Position numbers and translations under genes: made by a program. Of a DNA stretch of 64,000 bases, positions 35,448 through 40,791 are shown one piece after another (position 1 is the stretch's first letter; each line of letters starts with the position of its first letter). Source of the stretch: Minisyncoccota bacterium (GTDB taxonomy: Bacteria; Patescibacteriota; Minisyncoccia; Phycocordibacterales; UBA9973); contig JBAYHR010000004.1 of assembly GCA_041666045.1 (NCBI GenBank), forward strand, positions 4,996 through 68,995, written 5' to 3'. The notes beneath the pieces were generated by a model, which searched no databases, was not told the origin of the DNA, and was given only the letters and a program-made list of their open reading frames with translations.

Positions 35448-36128
35448 TTATATAATATATTTACCATCTTTGTCATCACGAATAATTTTTCCTTTTTCCA
35501 TAGTAACAACCCTTTTACCAATTGAATCAATAACACCACGATTATGCGTAGTTAAAATAATCGTCGTGCCTAAATCATTTATTTTCTTTAAAATTTGAAT
35601 AACTTCATAAGTATTGACTGGGTCTAAATTGCCAGTTGGTTCATCGGCAATAATAAGCTCCGGTTGATTAATAATAGCACGCGCTATAGCAAGCCTTTGT
35701 TGTTCACCTCCAGACATTTGATGGGGAAAATGAGAAATTCTGTTCCCCAAATCAACAAGTTCTAAAACATGAGGCACATCTGTTGCTATTTCTTCTCTAG
35801 TTTTTCCTACAGCCTCCATTGCAAAAGCAATATTTTCATACGCTGTCTTATTAGAAAGTAATTTAAAATCTTGAAATACTGCGCCAATACGACGACGAAG
35901 CTTTGTTAAATCCTTACTTTTTAACTTATGCACATTAACAGATTCAAAAAAAACGCTTCCATTGCTTGGACGCTCATCTGCCATAATCATTTTAACAAGA
36001 GTTGTCTTGCCTGCGCCAGAATGCCCAACAATAGATACGAATTCACCAGCAGTTACCGTCAAGCTAACATCGTCCATCGCTATTGAATCTCTATTATAAA
36101 TTTTTGAAACATTATTAAAATAAATCAC
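35448..36128 (-). CDS. ftsE: Cell division ATP-binding protein FtsE
   Basis: Walker A GHSGAGKTTL, ABC signature LSGGEQQR, Walker B IIADEPT; GTG start after an AAGGA RBS. Confidence 0.9.
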   Translation of the reverse strand: MIYFNNVSKIYNRDSIAMDDVSLTVTAGEFVSIVGHSGAGKTTLVKMIMADERPSNGSVFFESVNVHKLKSKDLTKLRRRIGAVFQDFKLLSNKTAYENIAFAMEAVGKTREEIATDVPHVLELVDLGNRISHFPHQMSGGEQQRLAIARAIINQPELIIADEPTGNLDPVNTYEVIQILKKINDLGTTIILTTHNRGVIDSIGKRVVTMEKGKIIRDDKDGKYII

Positions 36129-36140
36129 ATCCTTAGTTTA

Positions 36141-36169
36141 TCACAAATTCCTTTCTGCTTCAATAAACA
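36141..36169 (-). repeat. 29-bp direct repeat TCACAAATTCCTTTCTGCTTCAATAAACA (copy at RT 3' end)
   Basis: Identical to 39904-39932 at the prfB 3' end; encodes FIEAERNL plus TGA on the minus strand. Confidence 0.85.
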
Positions 36170-37163
36170 TACTAAGTTTATACCCATTCCCATGCCCCAG
36201 CATCCCCAAATACGAAGCAATGGTATTAGGTTTTTGATTATTCTTTAAATTCCTAAACATCCTTTTCTTTGTGCTATTTCGTAATACTCTGTGTTTAGGA
36301 AAATGTACCCAGCCTAAGAAATCCACACCTGAATAAATAGTTTTAATAAAAACTTTATCTGGATGCATAGTTAATTTTAATTCATTTTCTAAAAACTCTT
36401 TCATTTGTTCTAAAATATTTTCCAAATAATTTTTGTCTTGCGATAATATAACAAAATCATCAGCGTATCTTATATAATATTTCACTTTCAATTTATGTTT
36501 TACAAATTGATCAAATTCATTCATATAGATATTTACAAGGAGTTGAGAAGTTAAATTACCCAAAGGCAAACCTTTTGAAAGTGACACAAACTCTGCCATG
36601 GCAGAGTTTGTGTCACTTGTATAAAAACTATCTATAATATTATCTAAAAGCCAAATGATATCTTTATCTTTTATAAATTTTACTAAAATACTTTTTAAAA
36701 TATTATGATCAATACTCGCAAAGAATTTTTTAATATCACATTTTAAAACCCAACAGGTTTTTGAATTATTTTTACTAACTTTGCGAAAATAATCCCTAAA
36801 CTTATTCATTCCCTTATGAGTACCTTTCCATTTACGGCAAGAATATGAATCACTGATAAATTTTGAATCAAAGAAAAAATACATTTTTTGATAAAGAGCG
36901 TGATGCAATATCCTGTCACAAACAATGGCTTTATGTATATCACGAGGTTTTGGATCAGAAATTTTAAAAGCATAATATCCTGAATGTTTATAATTTTTTG
37001 TTTTTAAATCATTGTGAAGTTTTAATAAATTTTCCATTAAATTTCTTTGCCAAATTTGAACATCTTTTTTATTTGATTTTTCGCTCCTAAAATTTTTCCA
37101 CGCCAAAAGTAAATTTTCCAAAGATATGATATCATTGTAACTATGAATAAAAGTTTTTATCAT
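36141..37163 (-). CDS. Diversity-generating retroelement reverse transcriptase
   Basis: RT motifs including YIRYADDFVIL (YxDD) and the DGR-specific LGxxxSQ (LPLGNLTSQ); 340 aa; the last 8 codons are shared with prfB. Confidence 0.85.
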   Translation of the reverse strand: MIKTFIHSYNDIISLENLLLAWKNFRSEKSNKKDVQIWQRNLMENLLKLHNDLKTKNYKHSGYYAFKISDPKPRDIHKAIVCDRILHHALYQKMYFFFDSKFISDSYSCRKWKGTHKGMNKFRDYFRKVSKNNSKTCWVLKCDIKKFFASIDHNILKSILVKFIKDKDIIWLLDNIIDSFYTSDTNSAMAEFVSLSKGLPLGNLTSQLLVNIYMNEFDQFVKHKLKVKYYIRYADDFVILSQDKNYLENILEQMKEFLENELKLTMHPDKVFIKTIYSGVDFLGWVHFPKHRVLRNSTKKRMFRNLKNNQKPNTIASYLGMLGHGNGYKLSMFIEAERNL

Positions 37164-37176
37164 TCTTCTGATATTA

Positions 37177-37187
37177 CCCCCCCCCCC
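37177..37187. repeat. C11 homopolymer in the 31-bp divergent RT/avd intergenic region
   Basis: Direct reading; striking in a ~30% GC genome. Confidence 0.8.
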
Positions 37188-37194
37188 GACGATT

Positions 37195-37545
37195 TTGCCA
37201 GTTATGCAAAGGGTAAAAACTGTGTATATCCTATGGTTTGAATATTATAAAAAATTAGAAAAAACACACAAATACACGCTTGGTCAAAAAATTGATAATT
37301 TATTTATAGAAATAATAGAAGCCGTATCAATTGCCACATTTTTAGATAAAACAGAAAAACAACCCTGGATAAGACTTGCAATACGGAAATTAGATACAAT
37401 AAAAATACTTTTAATGATACTTTGGGAAACAAAATCTCTTGATAATAAAAAATATATAAACATTTCCAAACCAATAGATGAAATAGGCAGAATGCTCGGT
37501 GGTTGGAATGGACAGCTTACAAAACAAAACTCTCCCAATAAATAG
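37195..37545 (+). CDS. avd: DGR accessory variability determinant (Avd, four-helix-bundle protein)
   Basis: 116 aa basic protein; C-terminal IDEIGRMLGGWNGQL matches the Avd/TIGR02436 EVGRILGSWI region; helical pattern. Confidence 0.7.
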   Translation: MPVMQRVKTVYILWFEYYKKLEKTHKYTLGQKIDNLFIEIIEAVSIATFLDKTEKQPWIRLAIRKLDTIKILLMILWETKSLDNKKYINISKPIDEIGRMLGGWNGQLTKQNSPNK

Positions 37546-37563
37546 GGAGAGAAATGAAAAGAG

Positions 37564-37696
37564 TTGCGAGAGAGAAAAACAAAGCGATTGTTGCCACTCC
37601 ACTTGTTGTCTAAATTCCCATTATTGTTGTTAAGCCACAACCCATCGTTATTGCATTCCACATTGAAAATCCTAGGATTGCCATCGCGATCAGTAT
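37564..37696 (-). repeat. DGR template repeat (TR)
   Basis: 133-bp direct repeat of the VR; differs from the VR only at positions that are A on the sense (minus) strand. Confidence 0.85.
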
Positions 37697-38005
37697 ATAT
37701 AAACTATCATCTATGCCACCACCCTTAGAATGCTCTCCGGGTTGAATTTTATTTAGTATCTAAAATACTTCAATAGTTTATACCAAGTAATTTCATTTTT
37801 TAATGAAGTGTCTGCACACATTACACTATTTTTAATCTTAATTAAAAATATTCTGAATGCATGGATACTGGATTCGGTAGTGAAAAACCTTAATCTTTCA
37901 CATATTCACCTACTACCATTTTTATTTTATCATACTTTTTTTAAAAAAATTCAAAGTTCAAAAATCAAAGAGTCAAAAGAATTCTAAATTGCAAAATCCT
38001 AAGTT

Positions 38006-39859
38006 CTAATTCTTGCGAGAGAGAAAAACAAAGCGATAGTTGCCACTCCACCTGTCGCCTAAATTCCCATCATAGCTGTCAAGCCACAACCCATCGCCAT
38101 AGCATTCCACACCGAAAATCCTAGGACCGCCATCGCGATCAGCAATAGAATCCATCGCAATTCTTAACCATTCTCCCATAAGTTGATCTTTATAATTAAG
38201 TCTAAGCTCTGGACCAACTTGTGGTGGACATAATTCTAAACCAAGTTTTTTTGCTTTATTGTATATTTCTTTTAAAGTAGCTCCATTTGGAAAACCGAGT
38301 TGTTCTATTGAAAATGAAACTAGATTAATTTTTTCTTTTTGTTTTAATGGCTCTATTTTATTTAACATATCTTGAGCATAAGAATATATTTTCATTCCTT
38401 GTACTTTTATTTCTTTTGTATATTCTTCTGATGTTTTAGTTGTAAGTTCTATATTTTTTCTAAATATTTTCTTTTCAGGAAATGATTCATATAAATATTC
38501 AATATTTTTTGGAATCTTTTTTGCAATTTCCGGATTCCATTCTCCTATATATGCTTTAGTATTTTCGTTTATTTCATCTTTATTATATGCAATCTGTTCT
38601 GAATTGCATTCAAAAATAATTGATGCATCTTCTTTGATATTTCTTTGTTTTCTTAATTCTAAAATTCGTGGATCTTTTTCATAACCAAAACTTGAAATAG
38701 AATCATTCATCTCATATAGAAAAACTAAATCTTGTTTGGTAAATTGTTCATTCTTTTCTTGTTTTTTAACAAGCTCAGTCACTTTTTTCATATCATTTGA
38801 TTTTTTATCAAATTTTTCTCCACCCGGCAAAGAATGATATTTTTCTTGTGCAGTATCTATCAAAACAGGTTCTAATTCTTGTCGGTGATTCACTCCACGC
38901 ACTTCTGCTATTTCATCTCCTTGCATTCTAATTGCAATTCTGGGCTCAGAATAATTACCAGCTGTTCCTTTAGTGTAATAAACATAAAAATCACCACCTT
39001 GCAGATGACTTGGCGCGCTTCCTTCGGCTGTACACCAGCCTGTGCCTTTGCCACGAAGTGCATTTTCTAAAATATGATAATCAGAACCTTGATCATATTT
39101 TACCCATTCACCTTTTAATGATTCACGATTTAATGTTCCAGCTGTTTCTATTTGAGCAAAAGTGTAAAGTTTTACAAAATCTTTCTTTTCTATCATCTTT
39201 TCTAAATCAGCTCTTTTTTGTTTTTGATCTTCCCCTGTGAATTCTTGGCTACCGATACCAGTAGTTAGCATTCTGTAAACAAAACCAAGCGCTTCGGAAT
39301 TTATTTCTGGAAATGGAGCAATTGTATAATCTGTGCGTTTACTATACTCTCCTTTTTCTTTATTAAGAGTTCCCATTTTAGACAAATTGCGAACAATAAA
39401 ATACCGAAACCAAGTCGGATATTCTGCATCGTTTTGTTTTAAGTAATCAAGCCAGCCATTTAATGATTTTACTTGAATTTCTCTTTTTTCTTTAGCAAGA
39501 TTTTCATAACCTTTTATTAGCTCATCATTATCTTCCAACTTCATTATTTCATTGCTTCTGCCTTGTTCTATTGCAATTCTTTTTTCTGATTCATAAAGAC
39601 CAACAGCGATTTTTGTAAGTGTATCTTCATCTTTAGTGTCTATGGCTAAATCTTTTATTATTTTATTTTTTAGTAATTCCCAACCTCGCTCGTCTTCCAC
39701 TATTTTATCAAGACGATCTAAATACGCTTCTATTCTTTCATCACGAGAATGCGGAGCAAATTTTCTTTCTGGATCTTTTTTAGCTTTTTCTACTGCTCGA
39801 ACAACCGGTTTTGAACCCGGTAAATCTGAATATTTTTGTTCAAGAAAATTCTTTTTCAT
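38006..39859 (-). CDS. DGR target protein with C-terminal variable (CLec/FGE-like) region
   Basis: 617 aa, no signal peptide; C-terminus ...GVECYGDGLWLDSYDGNLGDRWSGNYRFVFLSRKN is encoded by the VR. Confidence 0.8.
   Translation of the reverse strand: MKKNFLEQKYSDLPGSKPVVRAVEKAKKDPERKFAPHSRDERIEAYLDRLDKIVEDERGWELLKNKIIKDLAIDTKDEDTLTKIAVGLYESEKRIAIEQGRSNEIMKLEDNDELIKGYENLAKEKREIQVKSLNGWLDYLKQNDAEYPTWFRYFIVRNLSKMGTLNKEKGEYSKRTDYTIAPFPEINSEALGFVYRMLTTGIGSQEFTGEDQKQKRADLEKMIEKKDFVKLYTFAQIETAGTLNRESLKGEWVKYDQGSDYHILENALRGKGTGWCTAEGSAPSHLQGGDFYVYYTKGTAGNYSEPRIAIRMQGDEIAEVRGVNHRQELEPVLIDTAQEKYHSLPGGEKFDKKSNDMKKVTELVKKQEKNEQFTKQDLVFLYEMNDSISSFGYEKDPRILELRKQRNIKEDASIIFECNSEQIAYNKDEINENTKAYIGEWNPEIAKKIPKNIEYLYESFPEKKIFRKNIELTTKTSEEYTKEIKVQGMKIYSYAQDMLNKIEPLKQKEKINLVSFSIEQLGFPNGATLKEIYNKAKKLGLELCPPQVGPELRLNYKDQLMGEWLRIAMDSIADRDGGPRIFGVECYGDGLWLDSYDGNLGDRWSGNYRFVFLSRKN
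38013..38145 (-). repeat. DGR variable repeat (VR) at the 3' end of the target gene
   Basis: About 17 substitutions relative to the TR, all at TR adenines (13 A->G, 4 A->T in coding sense); the 3'-terminal ~30 nt are identical (IMH-like). Confidence 0.85.
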
Positions 39860-39903
39860 ATTTTTATATTACCATATAATTTATAAAAATCCAGCGTTTA
39901 AAA

Positions 39904-39932
39904 TCACAAATTCCTTTCTGCTTCAATAAACA
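39904..39932 (-). repeat. 29-bp direct repeat (copy at prfB 3' end)
   Basis: Identical to 36141-36169. Confidence 0.85.
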
Positions 39933-40791
39933 AATCCAAATCTCCTTCTAAAACTTCATCAACATTTGAAGTTTCAACTAGAGTCCTATGATCCTTAACC
40001 ATTTTATATGGATGAAGCACATAAGAACGAATTTGACTTCCCCATTCTATTTCTGTGCCTTTGGAAATCTTCATACTTTCTTCTATGCTCTTTTTTTCTT
40101 CTTGCGCCTTTTTAAAAATCTTTGCCCGGAGAATATTCATGGCTTGCTCACGATTTTGTTCCTGAGAACGTTCTCCTGAAGCGTGAACAGAAATATTTGT
40201 AGGAATATGTACTATGCGTACTGCTGTTTCCCTTTTATTTACATTTTGTCCGCCTGGTCCTCCAGCACGAGCAAATTCTATTTTTAAATCAGCTGGAGGT
40301 ATTATAAAATCTTTCTCTTCTAATTTTGAAAATTTTGGCAAAACTTCAATTAAAGAAAAAGAAGTATGCCTTAACTTTTTTGCATTAAAAGGAGAAATCC
40401 TAACCAAACGATGCACCCCACTTTCATTTTTCAAATTCCCATAAACCCCCTTACCATCTATTTCAAAAGAAACATTTCTATATCCGCCATGATCATTTTT
40501 GTGTTCGTGTATAAAAGAAATGTTCCAACCTTTTTTATCAGCATACTTCATATACATATCCAAAAGCATTTTAGAAAAATCTTCCGCGTCATCTCCTCCT
40601 GCGCCAGAAATTATAGTCAAAATAGCATTACCTTTATCATATTTACCAAAACCTTGTTTCTTATTTTTTAAATCTTCTAATTCTTTTAGAGTTGTCTGCG
40701 CTTTATTTTTATCAGCCCAAAAGTTAGGACTTAACATTTCTTCCTCCAATTCTTTTATTTTTTGTTCTATTTTATTTTTTTCTTCATCCAT
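39904..40791 (-). CDS. prfB: Peptide chain release factor 2 (short N-terminus, no programmed frameshift detected)
   Basis: SPF tripeptide, GGQ ([15 protein letters not shown]), [11 protein letters not shown]; 295 aa; a terminator lies directly upstream, so no frame-0 leader exon. Confidence 0.8.

What the first reader, a model, noticed from the sequence alone, without database searches (positions are those of the whole stretch)
36141..39859. Complete diversity-generating retroelement with adenine-specific TR/VR divergence
The RT carries YxDD and the DGR-diagnostic LGxxxSQ motif. An Avd-like four-helix protein is present. A 133-bp template repeat (37564-37696) is directly repeated at the 3' end of a 617-aa target gene (38013-38145). 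The two copies differ at ~17 positions, and every difference falls on a TR adenine in the sense strand (13 A->G, 4 A->T). The 3'-terminal ~30 nt are identical, as expected for an IMH region. This is the signature of active mutagenic homing into the C-terminal ...GLWLDSYDGNLGDRWSGNYRFVF region, which is Asn-codon rich in the TR (NNNNGNLDNKWSGNN). The target has no signal peptide.
Basis: partly seen in the sequence, partly recalled or inferred. Interest (0 to 1): 0.8.

Follow-up and report, generated by a model that had tools for sequence, protein, structure and literature searches.

The report
Complete CPR-type diversity-generating retroelement cassette
This is a genuine, complete diversity-generating retroelement of the kind already known from ultra-small Patescibacteria. 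It rewrites the tail of one cytoplasmic protein, and it also shows a large conserved RNA domain, a purine tract between its two enzyme genes and a clean insertion footprint that I could not find described.

Summary
TR (37564-37696) and VR (38013-38145) are 133-nt direct repeats on the minus strand with 17 mismatches, all at TR adenines (13 A>G, 4 A>T; p about 7e-11), and all at codon positions 1 or 2.

The RT is closest to the Bordetella phage DGR RT. An Avd is present but lies on the opposite strand. The 617-aa target belongs to a large Patescibacteria family with a hypervariable last ~45 residues.

This is the known CPR "TR-(avd)-RT" (B3) DGR architecture, so the locus is a new member of a known kind. 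Current activity is inferred, not shown.

Four further features emerged across about 45 related loci.
- A promoter-driven, ~220-nt structured RNA domain lies directly 5' of TR. 46 of 53 pairs covary, and there is no Rfam match.
- A homopurine tract (G7-14 or (GA)5-22; G11 here) always fills the avd-RT gap.
- A phased CTTTG array follows the VR.
- The whole 3.7-kb cassette is an insertion between prfB and ftsE. It is flanked by a perfect 30-bp target-site duplication, and sister genomes show the empty site.

The parts
39903..39932 (.). Left copy of the exact 30-nt direct repeat. It is the native 3' end of prfB (...FIEAERNL*). The cassette begins immediately after it on the minus strand.
   Evidence: D3, 100% identity. 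Junction alignment with empty sites.
38006..39859 (-). Target (variable protein) gene, 617 aa, with no Pfam, NCBIfam or PHROG family. It has a conserved ~570-aa N-terminal region and a hypervariable C-terminal ~45 aa.
   Evidence: AF2 model with pLDDT 86.5.
38013..38145 (-). Variable repeat (VR), the last 45 codons of the target.
37940..38005 (-). Array of about 7 TT(A/T)GA / CTTNG motifs phased about 10-11 nt apart, immediately 3' of the target stop codon. It is conserved at this position in most homologous loci. Candidate cis element at the VR 3' flank; function unknown.
   Evidence: inspection across about 70 loci. Not statistically tested.
37924..37932 (-). Extended -10 promoter (TG-n-TAAAAT) of the DGR RNA. 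It is conserved as TGnTAnnnT in the aligned loci. The predicted start is near 37917.
   Evidence: Alignment A3 columns about 207-220. The start site is inferred.
37697..37917 (-). Structured 5' domain of the DGR RNA.
- P1: 37901-37892 with 37889-37880.
- P2a: 37863-37856 with 37822-37815.
- P2b: 37850-37840 with 37837-37827.
- A-rich strand: 37803-37789.
- Invariant ACUUGGU: 37788-37782.
- P3: 37783-37772 with 37708-37697, abutting the TR 5' end.
- P4: 37768-37765 with 37759-37756.
- P5: 37742-37738 with 37725-37721.
   Evidence: 94.4% of cells paired; 46 of 53 pairs with compensatory change; CM hit of 98 bits. No Rfam family.
37564..37696 (-). Template repeat (TR).
37522..37563 (-). Post-TR segment. 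A U-rich strand (37563-37552) is complementary to the A-rich strand of the 5' domain. It is followed by a covarying hairpin (37551-37530) and a U-run, which resembles an intrinsic terminator or an Avd-binding stem-loop. The segment overlaps the avd stop codon on the other strand.
   Evidence: helix 7; the only terminator-like site in 36000-40000.
37195..37545 (+). avd (accessory variability determinant), convergent with the TR RNA and divergent from RT. The likely start is the ATG at 37204, as called on the public contig.
37177..37187 (.). Homopurine/homopyrimidine tract (G11 on the RT-sense strand, C11 on the plus strand) in the gap between the avd and RT start codons. It is the only G/C run of 7 or more in the 64-kb window.
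36141..37163 (-). DGR reverse transcriptase, 340 aa. The native C-terminal tail is replaced by eight prfB-derived residues (FIEAERNL).
36579..36618 (.). Perfect 20+20-nt palindrome inside the RT ORF. It encodes an insertion (…SDTNSAMAEFVSL…) in a length-variable loop before the LGxxxSQ motif.
   Evidence: I3. RT alignment.
36140..36169 (.). Right copy of the 30-nt direct repeat (the duplicated target site). It supplies the last 8 codons and the stop of the RT ORF and is followed 12 nt later by ftsE.

Best explanation
This is a complete chromosomal diversity-generating retroelement of the Patescibacteria (CPR) lineage, with the TR-(avd)-RT ('B3') architecture, in a Candidatus Paceibacterota genome.

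Proposed mechanism:
1. A dedicated non-coding RNA is transcribed on the minus strand from its own extended -10 promoter.
2. The RNA consists of a ~220-nt multi-helix 5' domain, the 133-nt TR and a 3' hairpin with a U-run.
3. The RT, with Avd, reverse-transcribes the TR and misincorporates opposite template adenines.
4. The cDNA replaces the VR, which is the last 45 codons of a 617-aa cytoplasmic protein. This recodes up to 25 codons (13 of them AAY) on an otherwise fixed scaffold that is probably C-type-lectin-like.

Shown here:
- all components and their family assignments;
- the exclusively adenine-directed TR/VR differences;
- lineage-wide conservation of the architecture;
- covariation in the RNA.

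Inferred:
- that the element is active now;
- that helix P3, which abuts the TR 5' end, acts as the stop for cDNA synthesis;
- that the pairing between the A-rich strand of the 5' domain and the U-rich segment just 3' of TR positions the priming site. On this reading the scaffold that lies 3' of TR in the Bordetella phage element (Sp) is supplied here mainly from the 5' side.

The whole 3,733-bp cassette is a recent insertion between prfB and ftsE with a 30-bp target-site duplication.
For: - TR/VR: 17 of 17 mismatches at TR-A, all at codon positions 1 or 2, p = 7e-11.
- RT: best solved relative is bRT 8ub7 at 5.6e-34, with the LGxxxSQ motif aligned.
- Avd: Pfam bAvd above its cutoff, plus NCBIfam DivGenRetAVD (below cutoff) and a PHROG Avd family.
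- Target family: more than 1,700 relatives, found in 418 species genomes, with variation concentrated in the last ~45 residues.
- Architecture: about 30 loci share target-TR-(avd)-RT and about 10 have the inverted module upstream.
- Adenine bias across loci: 709 of 766 TR/VR mismatches at A in 36 loci.
- RNA: 94.4% of cells paired against 37-47% in slid controls, 46 of 53 pairs with compensatory changes, 0 of 500 shuffles as good.
- Covariance model: it finds the domain next to the TR in 47 matches (E<=0.01) across 83 sources, and also in a DGR with a different target.
- Single-sequence folding: the MFE of the window's domain reproduces P1-P5.
- Long-range A-rich/U-rich duplex: 7-10 bp with three covarying variants.
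- Literature: the B3 architecture and a CPR-restricted DGR clade are described (PMC5758913; PMC8144416).
- Insertion: empty sites and junctions are shown.
Against: - There is no direct evidence of current activity. The only other contig with this RT is 100% identical over 11 kb, and reads could not be mapped.
- The RT has lost its native C-terminal tail. That tail is variable in homologues, so the loss may be tolerated. The RT also carries a palindromic insertion in a loop.
- There is no GC-rich IMH or inverted repeat downstream of the VR.
- The functional roles proposed for the 5' RNA domain and the long-range duplex are inference. The duplex strands are low-complexity sequence.
- The 3' hairpin could be a terminator, an Avd-binding stem-loop, or both.
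Confidence: 0.9

Rival explanations
1. It is a fossil DGR. The cassette was functional when it, or its ancestor, last rewrote the VR, but it is now inactive, for example because of the truncated RT tail or the palindromic insertion in the RT. The A-only pattern would then be a frozen record.
For: - The RT C-terminal tail is replaced by prfB-derived residues, and a perfect 40-nt palindrome sits in an RT loop.
- No VR variation is available for this strain.
- Many related loci keep the target and TR without any RT or Avd nearby.
Against: - There is not one non-adenine TR/VR difference in 133 nt, and the two 30-nt flanking repeats are still identical, so little time has passed since the last homing and since insertion.
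- All ORFs are intact.
- The RT catalytic YADD and LGxxxSQ motifs are intact.
- RT tails and the insertion loop vary in length among homologues, so both changes may be tolerated.
Confidence: 0.25
2. The TR and VR are an ordinary segmental duplication that has drifted, next to an unrelated RT such as a group II intron, retron or defence RT.
For: NCBIfam's best RT hit is the group II intron RT model at 3.4e-43, but at 148 bits it is far below that model's 300-bit cutoff. NCBIfam returned no DGR-RT family among its hits for this protein.
Against: - All 17 differences fall on the 30% of positions that are A in one copy (p = 7e-11).
- The same bias is seen in 36 homologous loci.
- The RT is much closer to bRT than to group II or retron RTs.
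- A bona fide Avd is adjacent.
- No intron or retron RNA family was found.
Confidence: 0.01
3. The conserved region upstream of TR is not part of the DGR RNA. It would be an independent regulatory element, such as a 3' UTR or terminator region of the target gene or a separate small RNA, that merely co-travels with the TR.
For: - Transcript ends were not measured.
- The region lies between the target stop codon and the TR in most loci.
Against: - In about 10 loci the RT-avd-TR module is inverted and lies upstream of the target, yet the domain stays attached to the TR 5' side and not to the target 3' end.
- It also accompanies a DGR with a different target.
- Helix P3 ends one nucleotide before the TR boundary.
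- A conserved extended -10 element precedes it, and a hairpin with a U-run follows the TR.
Confidence: 0.1

Closest known systems
CPR/DPANN DGRs with architecture B3, TR-(avd)-RT (Wu et al. 2018, PMC5758913; Paul et al. 2017, not held here). Equivalent to DGR clade 2, Patescibacteria, of Roux et al. 2021 (PMC8144416).
   Same: - Order and orientation TR-(avd)-RT.
- Cellular, chromosomal location in a Patescibacteria genome.
- Target without a recognisable domain, signal peptide or TM segment.
- Adenine-specific TR/VR differences at AAY codons.
   Different: Nothing at the level of architecture, so this is a member. The 5' structured RNA domain, the purine tract between avd and RT, the phased motif array after the VR and the flanking target-site duplication are not mentioned in the accessible papers. 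Text searches found nothing. I could not read Paul et al. 2017.
Bordetella phage BPP-1 DGR (mtd-avd-TR-brt), including the bRT-Avd-RNA structure (PDB 8ub7 series; Handa et al. preprint 10.1101/2023.10.23.563531).
   Same: - The RT is homologous (5.6e-34).
- An Avd is present.
- The TR is about 130 nt and the VR lies at the 3' end of the target.
- A-to-N mutagenesis.
- An RNA element that pairs sequences flanking the TR, and a stem-loop just 3' of the TR.
   Different: - In BPP-1, avd is co-oriented and upstream of the TR. The essential RNA scaffold (Sp, about 140 nt) lies 3' of the TR, and only about 20 nt upstream are needed.
- Here avd is inverted and occupies the TR-RT interval. The conserved structured RNA (about 220 nt) lies 5' of the TR, with only about 40 nt conserved 3' of it.
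- The target is cytoplasmic, not a phage tail fibre.
- There is no GC-rich IMH and no cruciform after the VR.
DGR variable proteins with a C-type-lectin/FGE-like fold (Treponema TvpA, PDB 2y3c).
Simple-sequence-repeat promoter switches between or upstream of genes (Bordetella fim poly-C, Neisseria porA/opc poly-G, H. influenzae hifA/hifB TA repeats; from general knowledge).
   Same: A homopolymer or dinucleotide tract sits in a very short divergent intergenic region. In G-tract loci it lies between a -35-like TGG(C/T)AA and a -10-like TAATAT, with spacers of 11-18 nt. Tract length differs between loci.
   Different: No length polymorphism was seen among near-identical strains: G9 in 9 of 9 contigs and G10 in 5 of 5. 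(GA)n tracts of up to 44 nt cannot be promoter spacers. Switching is therefore unproven.

Membership tests
Diversity-generating retroelement (DGR) | Reverse transcriptase of the DGR clade, with catalytic YxDD and the (I/L)GxxxSQ motif | tested here: met
   YADD and GLPLGNLTSQ are present. The best PDB relative is bRT 8ub7 at 5.6e-34, against 1.4e-17 for the best group II RT. phrog_1423 matches at 3.6e-104. No RT phylogeny was built.
Diversity-generating retroelement (DGR) | TR/VR repeat pair whose differences fall at TR adenines | tested here: met
   17 of 17 mismatches at TR-A (13 A>G, 4 A>T), p = 7.2e-11.
Diversity-generating retroelement (DGR) | VR inside an ORF, usually at its 3' end, with template adenines at codon positions 1-2 (AAY codons) | tested here: met
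   The VR is the last 45 codons of the 617-aa ORF. All mismatches are at codon positions 1 or 2, and the TR has 13 AAY codons.
Diversity-generating retroelement (DGR) | Accessory protein Avd (common, not universal) | tested here: met
   Pfam bAvd 43.7 bits (cutoff 40), E = 4.3e-11. NCBIfam DivGenRetAVD 1.3e-16, below its 80-bit cutoff. PHROG 'Avd protein of DGR' 3.4e-13.
Diversity-generating retroelement (DGR) | Variable residues displayed on a C-type-lectin (or Ig) fold | tested here: inconclusive
Diversity-generating retroelement (DGR) | IMH/IMH* at the 3' ends of VR and TR, and a GC-rich inverted repeat after the VR (as in BPP-1; found in only about 34% of DGRs per PMC5758913) | tested here: not met
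   The last 25 nt of TR and VR are identical, and the sequences then diverge. There is no GC-rich block and no inverted repeat downstream of the VR. A phased CTTTG/TTAGA array is present instead. This feature is not required for membership.
Diversity-generating retroelement (DGR) | Ongoing diversification (VR heterogeneity within a population) | not testable with these tools
   The only other contig carrying this RT is identical over 11 kb. An exact-pattern scan of JGI metagenome contigs found nothing. No read data were available.
CPR DGR architecture B3 (TR-(avd)-RT) | [quoted passage not shown] | tested here: met
   TR 37696->37564 (-), avd 37195-37545 (+), RT 37163->36141 (-). The same arrangement is seen in about 40 homologous loci. 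The definition is taken from PMC5758913.
DGR clade 2 of Roux et al. 2021 (Patescibacteria) | RT groups phylogenetically with the CPR-restricted clade | not tested
   The host is a Candidatus Paceibacterota MAG, and all close RT relatives are from Patescibacteria. No tree with the reference clades was built.
Rfam RT-associated RNA motifs (RT-1 to RT-19, including RT-10 of BPP-1) | Match to the covariance model | tested here: not met
   No Rfam family reached the gathering threshold in the window. No RT-associated motif appeared at E<=10 in 37100-38200.

The most novel reading that the evidence does not exclude
The CPR B3 DGR lineage works with a re-arranged RNA. The protein-binding and priming scaffold is a separately promoted, ~220-nt structured domain on the 5' side of the TR, where the Bordetella element has its scaffold (Sp) on the 3' side.

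The element is also a self-contained mobile cassette. It lands just 3' of housekeeping genes and creates long target-site duplications of variable length (about 15-64 bp). That footprint fits a staggered-break or target-primed (possibly RT-mediated) insertion better than a classical transposase.

A conserved homopurine tract between avd and RT gates expression of the machinery.
Probability: 0.3. Interest if true: 0.75.

Novelty: new member of a known kind. Interest (0 to 1): 0.5.

Why it matters
As a DGR in a CPR bacterium, the locus is ordinary. Thousands are catalogued, and this architecture is the CPR norm.

Its value is as a clean reference example for three questions about this lineage.

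1. How is cDNA synthesis primed and terminated when avd occupies the place of the Sp RNA? The strongly covarying 5' domain, whose closing helix abuts the TR, gives concrete mutants to test.
2. How is a potentially dangerous mutator regulated? An invariant purine tract sits between avd and RT.
3. How do DGR cassettes move? Here the filled site, with a perfect 30-bp duplication, can be compared with empty sites in sister genomes.

The target family (617 aa, cytoplasmic, in at least 418 species genomes) is also one of the most widespread uncharacterised proteins of Patescibacteria that is subject to programmed hypervariation.

Tried and rejected
- VR population heterogeneity. Looking up the exact RT protein gave only a 100% identical contig. 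An exact 29-nt pattern scan of the JGI metagenome contigs found nothing. Activity therefore stays inferred.
- Phase variation of the G or GA tract. I tested it by comparing contigs that encode identical RTs. Tract length was constant: G9 in 9 of 9, G10 in 5 of 5 and G10 in 2 of 2. Several short contigs break at the tract, which could reflect either heterogeneity or sequencing difficulty. Unproven.
- Known RNA families for the TR-flanking RNA: none found.
- The AFDB Foldseek library was unavailable.
- Paul et al. 2017 (PMC5436926) is not held, so prior description of the extra features cannot be excluded.
- My first TR detector (blastn) missed some diverged TRs. The covariance model later showed the RNA domain in loci I had scored as 'no TR'.


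Full report
**1. The observation**

- A 340-aa RT ORF on the minus strand (36141-37163).
- A 116-aa ORF on the plus strand (37195-37545).
- A 617-aa ORF on the minus strand (38006-39859).
- A 130-133-nt direct repeat (37564-37696 and 38013-38145, D1).

In the sense (minus) orientation, the 133-nt copies differ at 17 positions. All 17 are A in the upstream-of-RT copy (the TR): 13 are G and 4 are T in the copy inside the 617-aa ORF (the VR). With 40 A in 133 nt, the chance that 17 random differences all hit A is 7.2e-11. All 17 lie at codon positions 1 or 2. The last 25 nt of the two copies are identical. The TR carries 13 AAY codons in the VR frame, giving a theoretical repertoire of about 5e22 peptides. 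The window has no second VR.

**2. Identity of the parts**

*RT.* The RT matches Pfam RVT_1 at 1e-24. Among solved structures it is closest to the Bordetella phage DGR RT (8ub7, 5.6e-34), with GIPIGSLTSQ aligned to GLPLGNLTSQ. The best group II intron RT scores only 1.4e-17. It also hits the phage RT family phrog_1423 at 3.6e-104.

*Avd.* The plus-strand ORF passes the Pfam bAvd threshold (43.7 bits against a cutoff of 40). It also hits NCBIfam DivGenRetAVD (1.3e-16, below that model's cutoff) and the PHROG Avd family.

*Target.* The target has no hit in Pfam, NCBIfam, PHROGs or PDB sequences. It has more than 1,700 relatives, all from Patescibacteria. One is a 100% identical protein from a Candidatus Paceibacterota MAG. 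Relatives occur in 418 species-representative genomes. In a 22-sequence alignment the first ~570 residues are well conserved, while the last ~45 are hypervariable on a fixed scaffold (DRDG.P..F.V....G.WL....G.L...W....RFVFR.RK).

*Target structure.* An AF2 model (mean pLDDT 86.5, above 90 in the C-terminal domain) gives only weak structural matches. The recurrent ones for the C-terminal domain are C-type-lectin/FGE-like:
- lectin CRDs at the top of the Foldseek list, but with E > 0.4.

The rest of the protein has no informative match.

**3. The lineage**

I fetched 80 homologous loci and analysed them by script.
- About 30 loci have the same order as the window, target-TR-(avd)-RT, with avd on the opposite strand.
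- About 10 loci have the RT-avd-TR module inverted and upstream of the target.
- In 36 loci with a detected TR, 709 of 766 TR/VR mismatches (93%) are at TR adenines.

The inverted avd is therefore a lineage character. It is already described: Wu et al. define architecture B3 as TR-(avd)-RT and report it in 90% of CPR DGRs (PMC5758913). Roux et al. describe a cellular DGR clade restricted to Patescibacteria whose targets lack recognisable domains (PMC8144416). The window's element is a member of this known kind.

**4. A structured RNA domain 5' of the TR**

*Conservation.* The distance from the target stop codon to the TR is nearly constant, 292-378 nt. This non-coding stretch is conserved. It begins with a conserved extended -10 element (TGnTAnnnT; window 37932-37924).

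*Covariation.* RNAalifold on 37 sequences predicts 60 pairs, 47 of them with compensatory changes. For the 53 pairs in seven helices:
- 94.4% of cells are paired, against 37-47% when partners are slid by 1-3 columns;
- 46 pairs show double changes;
- 0 of 500 shuffles reach the observed values.

*Helices in window coordinates.*
- P1: 37901-37892 with 37889-37880.
- P2a: 37863-37856 with 37822-37815.
- P2b: 37850-37840 with 37837-37827.
- Invariant ACUUGGU: 37788-37782.
- P3: a long-range helix, 37783-37772 with 37708-37697. It encloses P4 and P5, and its 3' strand ends one nucleotide before the TR.

The window's own MFE structure reproduces these helices (z = -2.6).

*After the TR.* A covarying hairpin with a U-run follows (37551-37530). 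It is the only terminator-like site in 36000-40000.

*Possible long-range pairing.* The A-rich strand before ACUUGGU is complementary to the U-rich segment just 3' of the TR. The duplex is 7-10 bp in most loci, with three co-varying versions:
- AAAUGAAG with CUUCAUUU;
- AAAAGAAAA with UUUUCUUUU;
- AAAUAAAAA with UUUUUAUUU.

Own-class duplexes are more stable than cross-class ones. This pairing involves low-complexity sequence, so I treat it as a candidate.

*Distribution.* A covariance model of the junction part found 47 matches (E<=0.01) across 83 sources, always next to a TR and only once in the window. It also hits a DGR with a different, smaller target. It does not hit the empty-site loci. 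No Rfam family matches.

*Comparison with the Bordetella phage element.* There the essential scaffold (Sp) lies 3' of the TR. The published cross-taxon survey examined only 40 nt upstream of the TR (Handa et al. preprint). In B3 elements the TR-RT interval is taken by antisense avd. I therefore infer that the 5' domain supplies scaffold functions, with P3 as the stop at the TR 5' end and the A-rich/U-rich duplex near the initiation site. This is inference and is directly testable.

**5. The avd-RT gap**

In every locus, the 13-52 nt between the divergent avd and RT starts is filled by a homopurine tract on the RT-sense strand: G7-G14, or (GA)5-(GA)22. The window has G11 (C11 on the plus strand at 37177-37187), which is the only G/C run of 7 or more in 64 kb. 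Almost all of the 38 such tracts in 1.09 Mb of loci lie in the avd-RT gap (by my reading of the list).

In G-tract loci the run lies between TGG(C/T)AA and TAATAT, with spacers of 11-18 nt (18 in the window). That resembles a phase-variable promoter.

However, contigs encoding identical RTs from different samples show no length variation: G9 in 9 of 9, G10 in 5 of 5 and G10 in 2 of 2. Several short contigs do end at the tract. Switching is therefore unproven. A strand-specific RNA signal, or a homopurine/homopyrimidine (triplex-prone) element at a divergent promoter, are alternatives. I found no paper linking DGRs with such tracts.

**6. The cassette is an insertion with a 30-bp target-site duplication**

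An exact 30-nt direct repeat brackets the element (39903-39932 and 36140-36169, D3). The first copy is the native 3' end of prfB. The second supplies the last eight codons of the RT ORF, whose own tail (8-40 variable residues in homologues) is missing.

Sister genomes with 92%-identical PrfB and the same synteny have ftsE starting 12 nt after prfB. The junction alignment shows that the window equals the empty site plus 3,733 bp plus a duplication of the 30 nt immediately 5' of the insertion point.

Other evidence that cassettes move:
- Another relative has an unrelated ORF inserted at the same junction.
- In L073 the prfB-ftsE interval holds a 40%-identical target with its RNA and TR but no avd or RT.
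- The closest target homologues (83-85% identical) sit after ndk or between alaS and ftsA.
- Exact flanking repeats occur around cassettes in other loci. Their lengths in nt are L004 21, L006 21, L030 64, L039 16, L053 15, L065 42 and L078 23+47. The L078 pair is part of an imperfect ~100-nt copy of the trmD 3' end.

The variable length of these repeats argues against a fixed-stagger transposase. The cassette encodes no integrase. The mechanism is unknown.

**7. Other observations**
- A phased array of CTTTG/TTAGA motifs follows the VR in most loci.
- Many genomes keep the target plus RNA/TR without RT or Avd nearby. These presumably rely on machinery supplied in trans.

**8. Verdict**

The element is a complete DGR of the known CPR B3 type, so it is a new member of a known kind. 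Activity is likely but not shown.

The lineage-wide features found here are well supported as observations:
- the 5' structured RNA domain;
- the purine tract in the avd-RT gap;
- the phased array after the VR;
- the target-site duplication with matching empty sites.

To my knowledge they are undescribed, with the caveat that Paul et al. 2017 could not be read. Their functional meaning is inferred.

Noticed in passing
window 36140-36169 and 39903-39932; loci L088-L091 (empty sites): An exact 30-nt direct repeat brackets the whole DGR. Sister genomes with 92%-identical PrfB have prfB followed directly by ftsE. The 3.7-kb cassette is therefore an insertion with a true 30-bp target-site duplication, and the RT ORF ends in duplicated prfB codons.
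   Followed up: yes
window 37177-37187; the avd-RT gap in about 33 loci (e.g. L034 3091-3132, L046 7161-7174): The gap between the divergent avd and RT starts always contains a homopurine tract, G7-14 or (GA)5-22. Tract length differs between loci but not between near-identical strains. Several short public contigs end exactly at the tract.
   Followed up: partly
window 37940-38005 (minus strand); the same position in most of L001-L080: An array of 5-8 CTT(T/A/G)G(A/G) motifs spaced about 10-11 nt apart lies directly after the target stop codon. It is present whether the TR is downstream, upstream or not found.
   Followed up: partly
window 36579-36618: A perfect 20+20-nt palindrome centred on CCATGG lies inside the RT ORF. 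It encodes an insertion in a loop that varies in length among homologous RTs.
   Followed up: partly
L073 7078-11331; L083/L084 6001-8500; L005, L007, L036, L059, L076: These loci have the target gene with the 5' RNA domain and a TR showing A-only mismatches, but no avd or RT within 8 kb. L073 has this at the same prfB-ftsE site as the window. This suggests the RT-Avd machinery is supplied in trans, or that it was lost recently.
   Followed up: partly
L030 3971-4034/6105-6168; L065 7779-7820/10168-10209; L078 2663-2761/4695-4793: Target-only cassettes are flanked by long duplications (42-64 nt exact, about 100 nt imperfect) of the 3' end of the upstream host gene, which is trmD in L078. The target gene itself seems to move as a unit.
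   Followed up: partly
L086/L087 5282-5848: An unrelated 188-aa ORF on the opposite strand occupies the same prfB-ftsE junction in another close relative. This points to an insertion hot spot.
   Followed up: no
L046 8001-9842 and 11370-13211: One locus holds two copies of the target gene with identical VRs (190 nt, 0 mismatches) and two C14 tracts. This looks like a recent duplication of part of the cassette.
   Followed up: no
L092/L096 (RT P0294): The same 5' RNA domain (83 bits) precedes the TR of a related DGR whose neighbouring ORFs are much smaller (206 and 386 aa) than the 617-aa family. The RNA therefore goes with the RT-Avd module and not with the target.
   Followed up: partly
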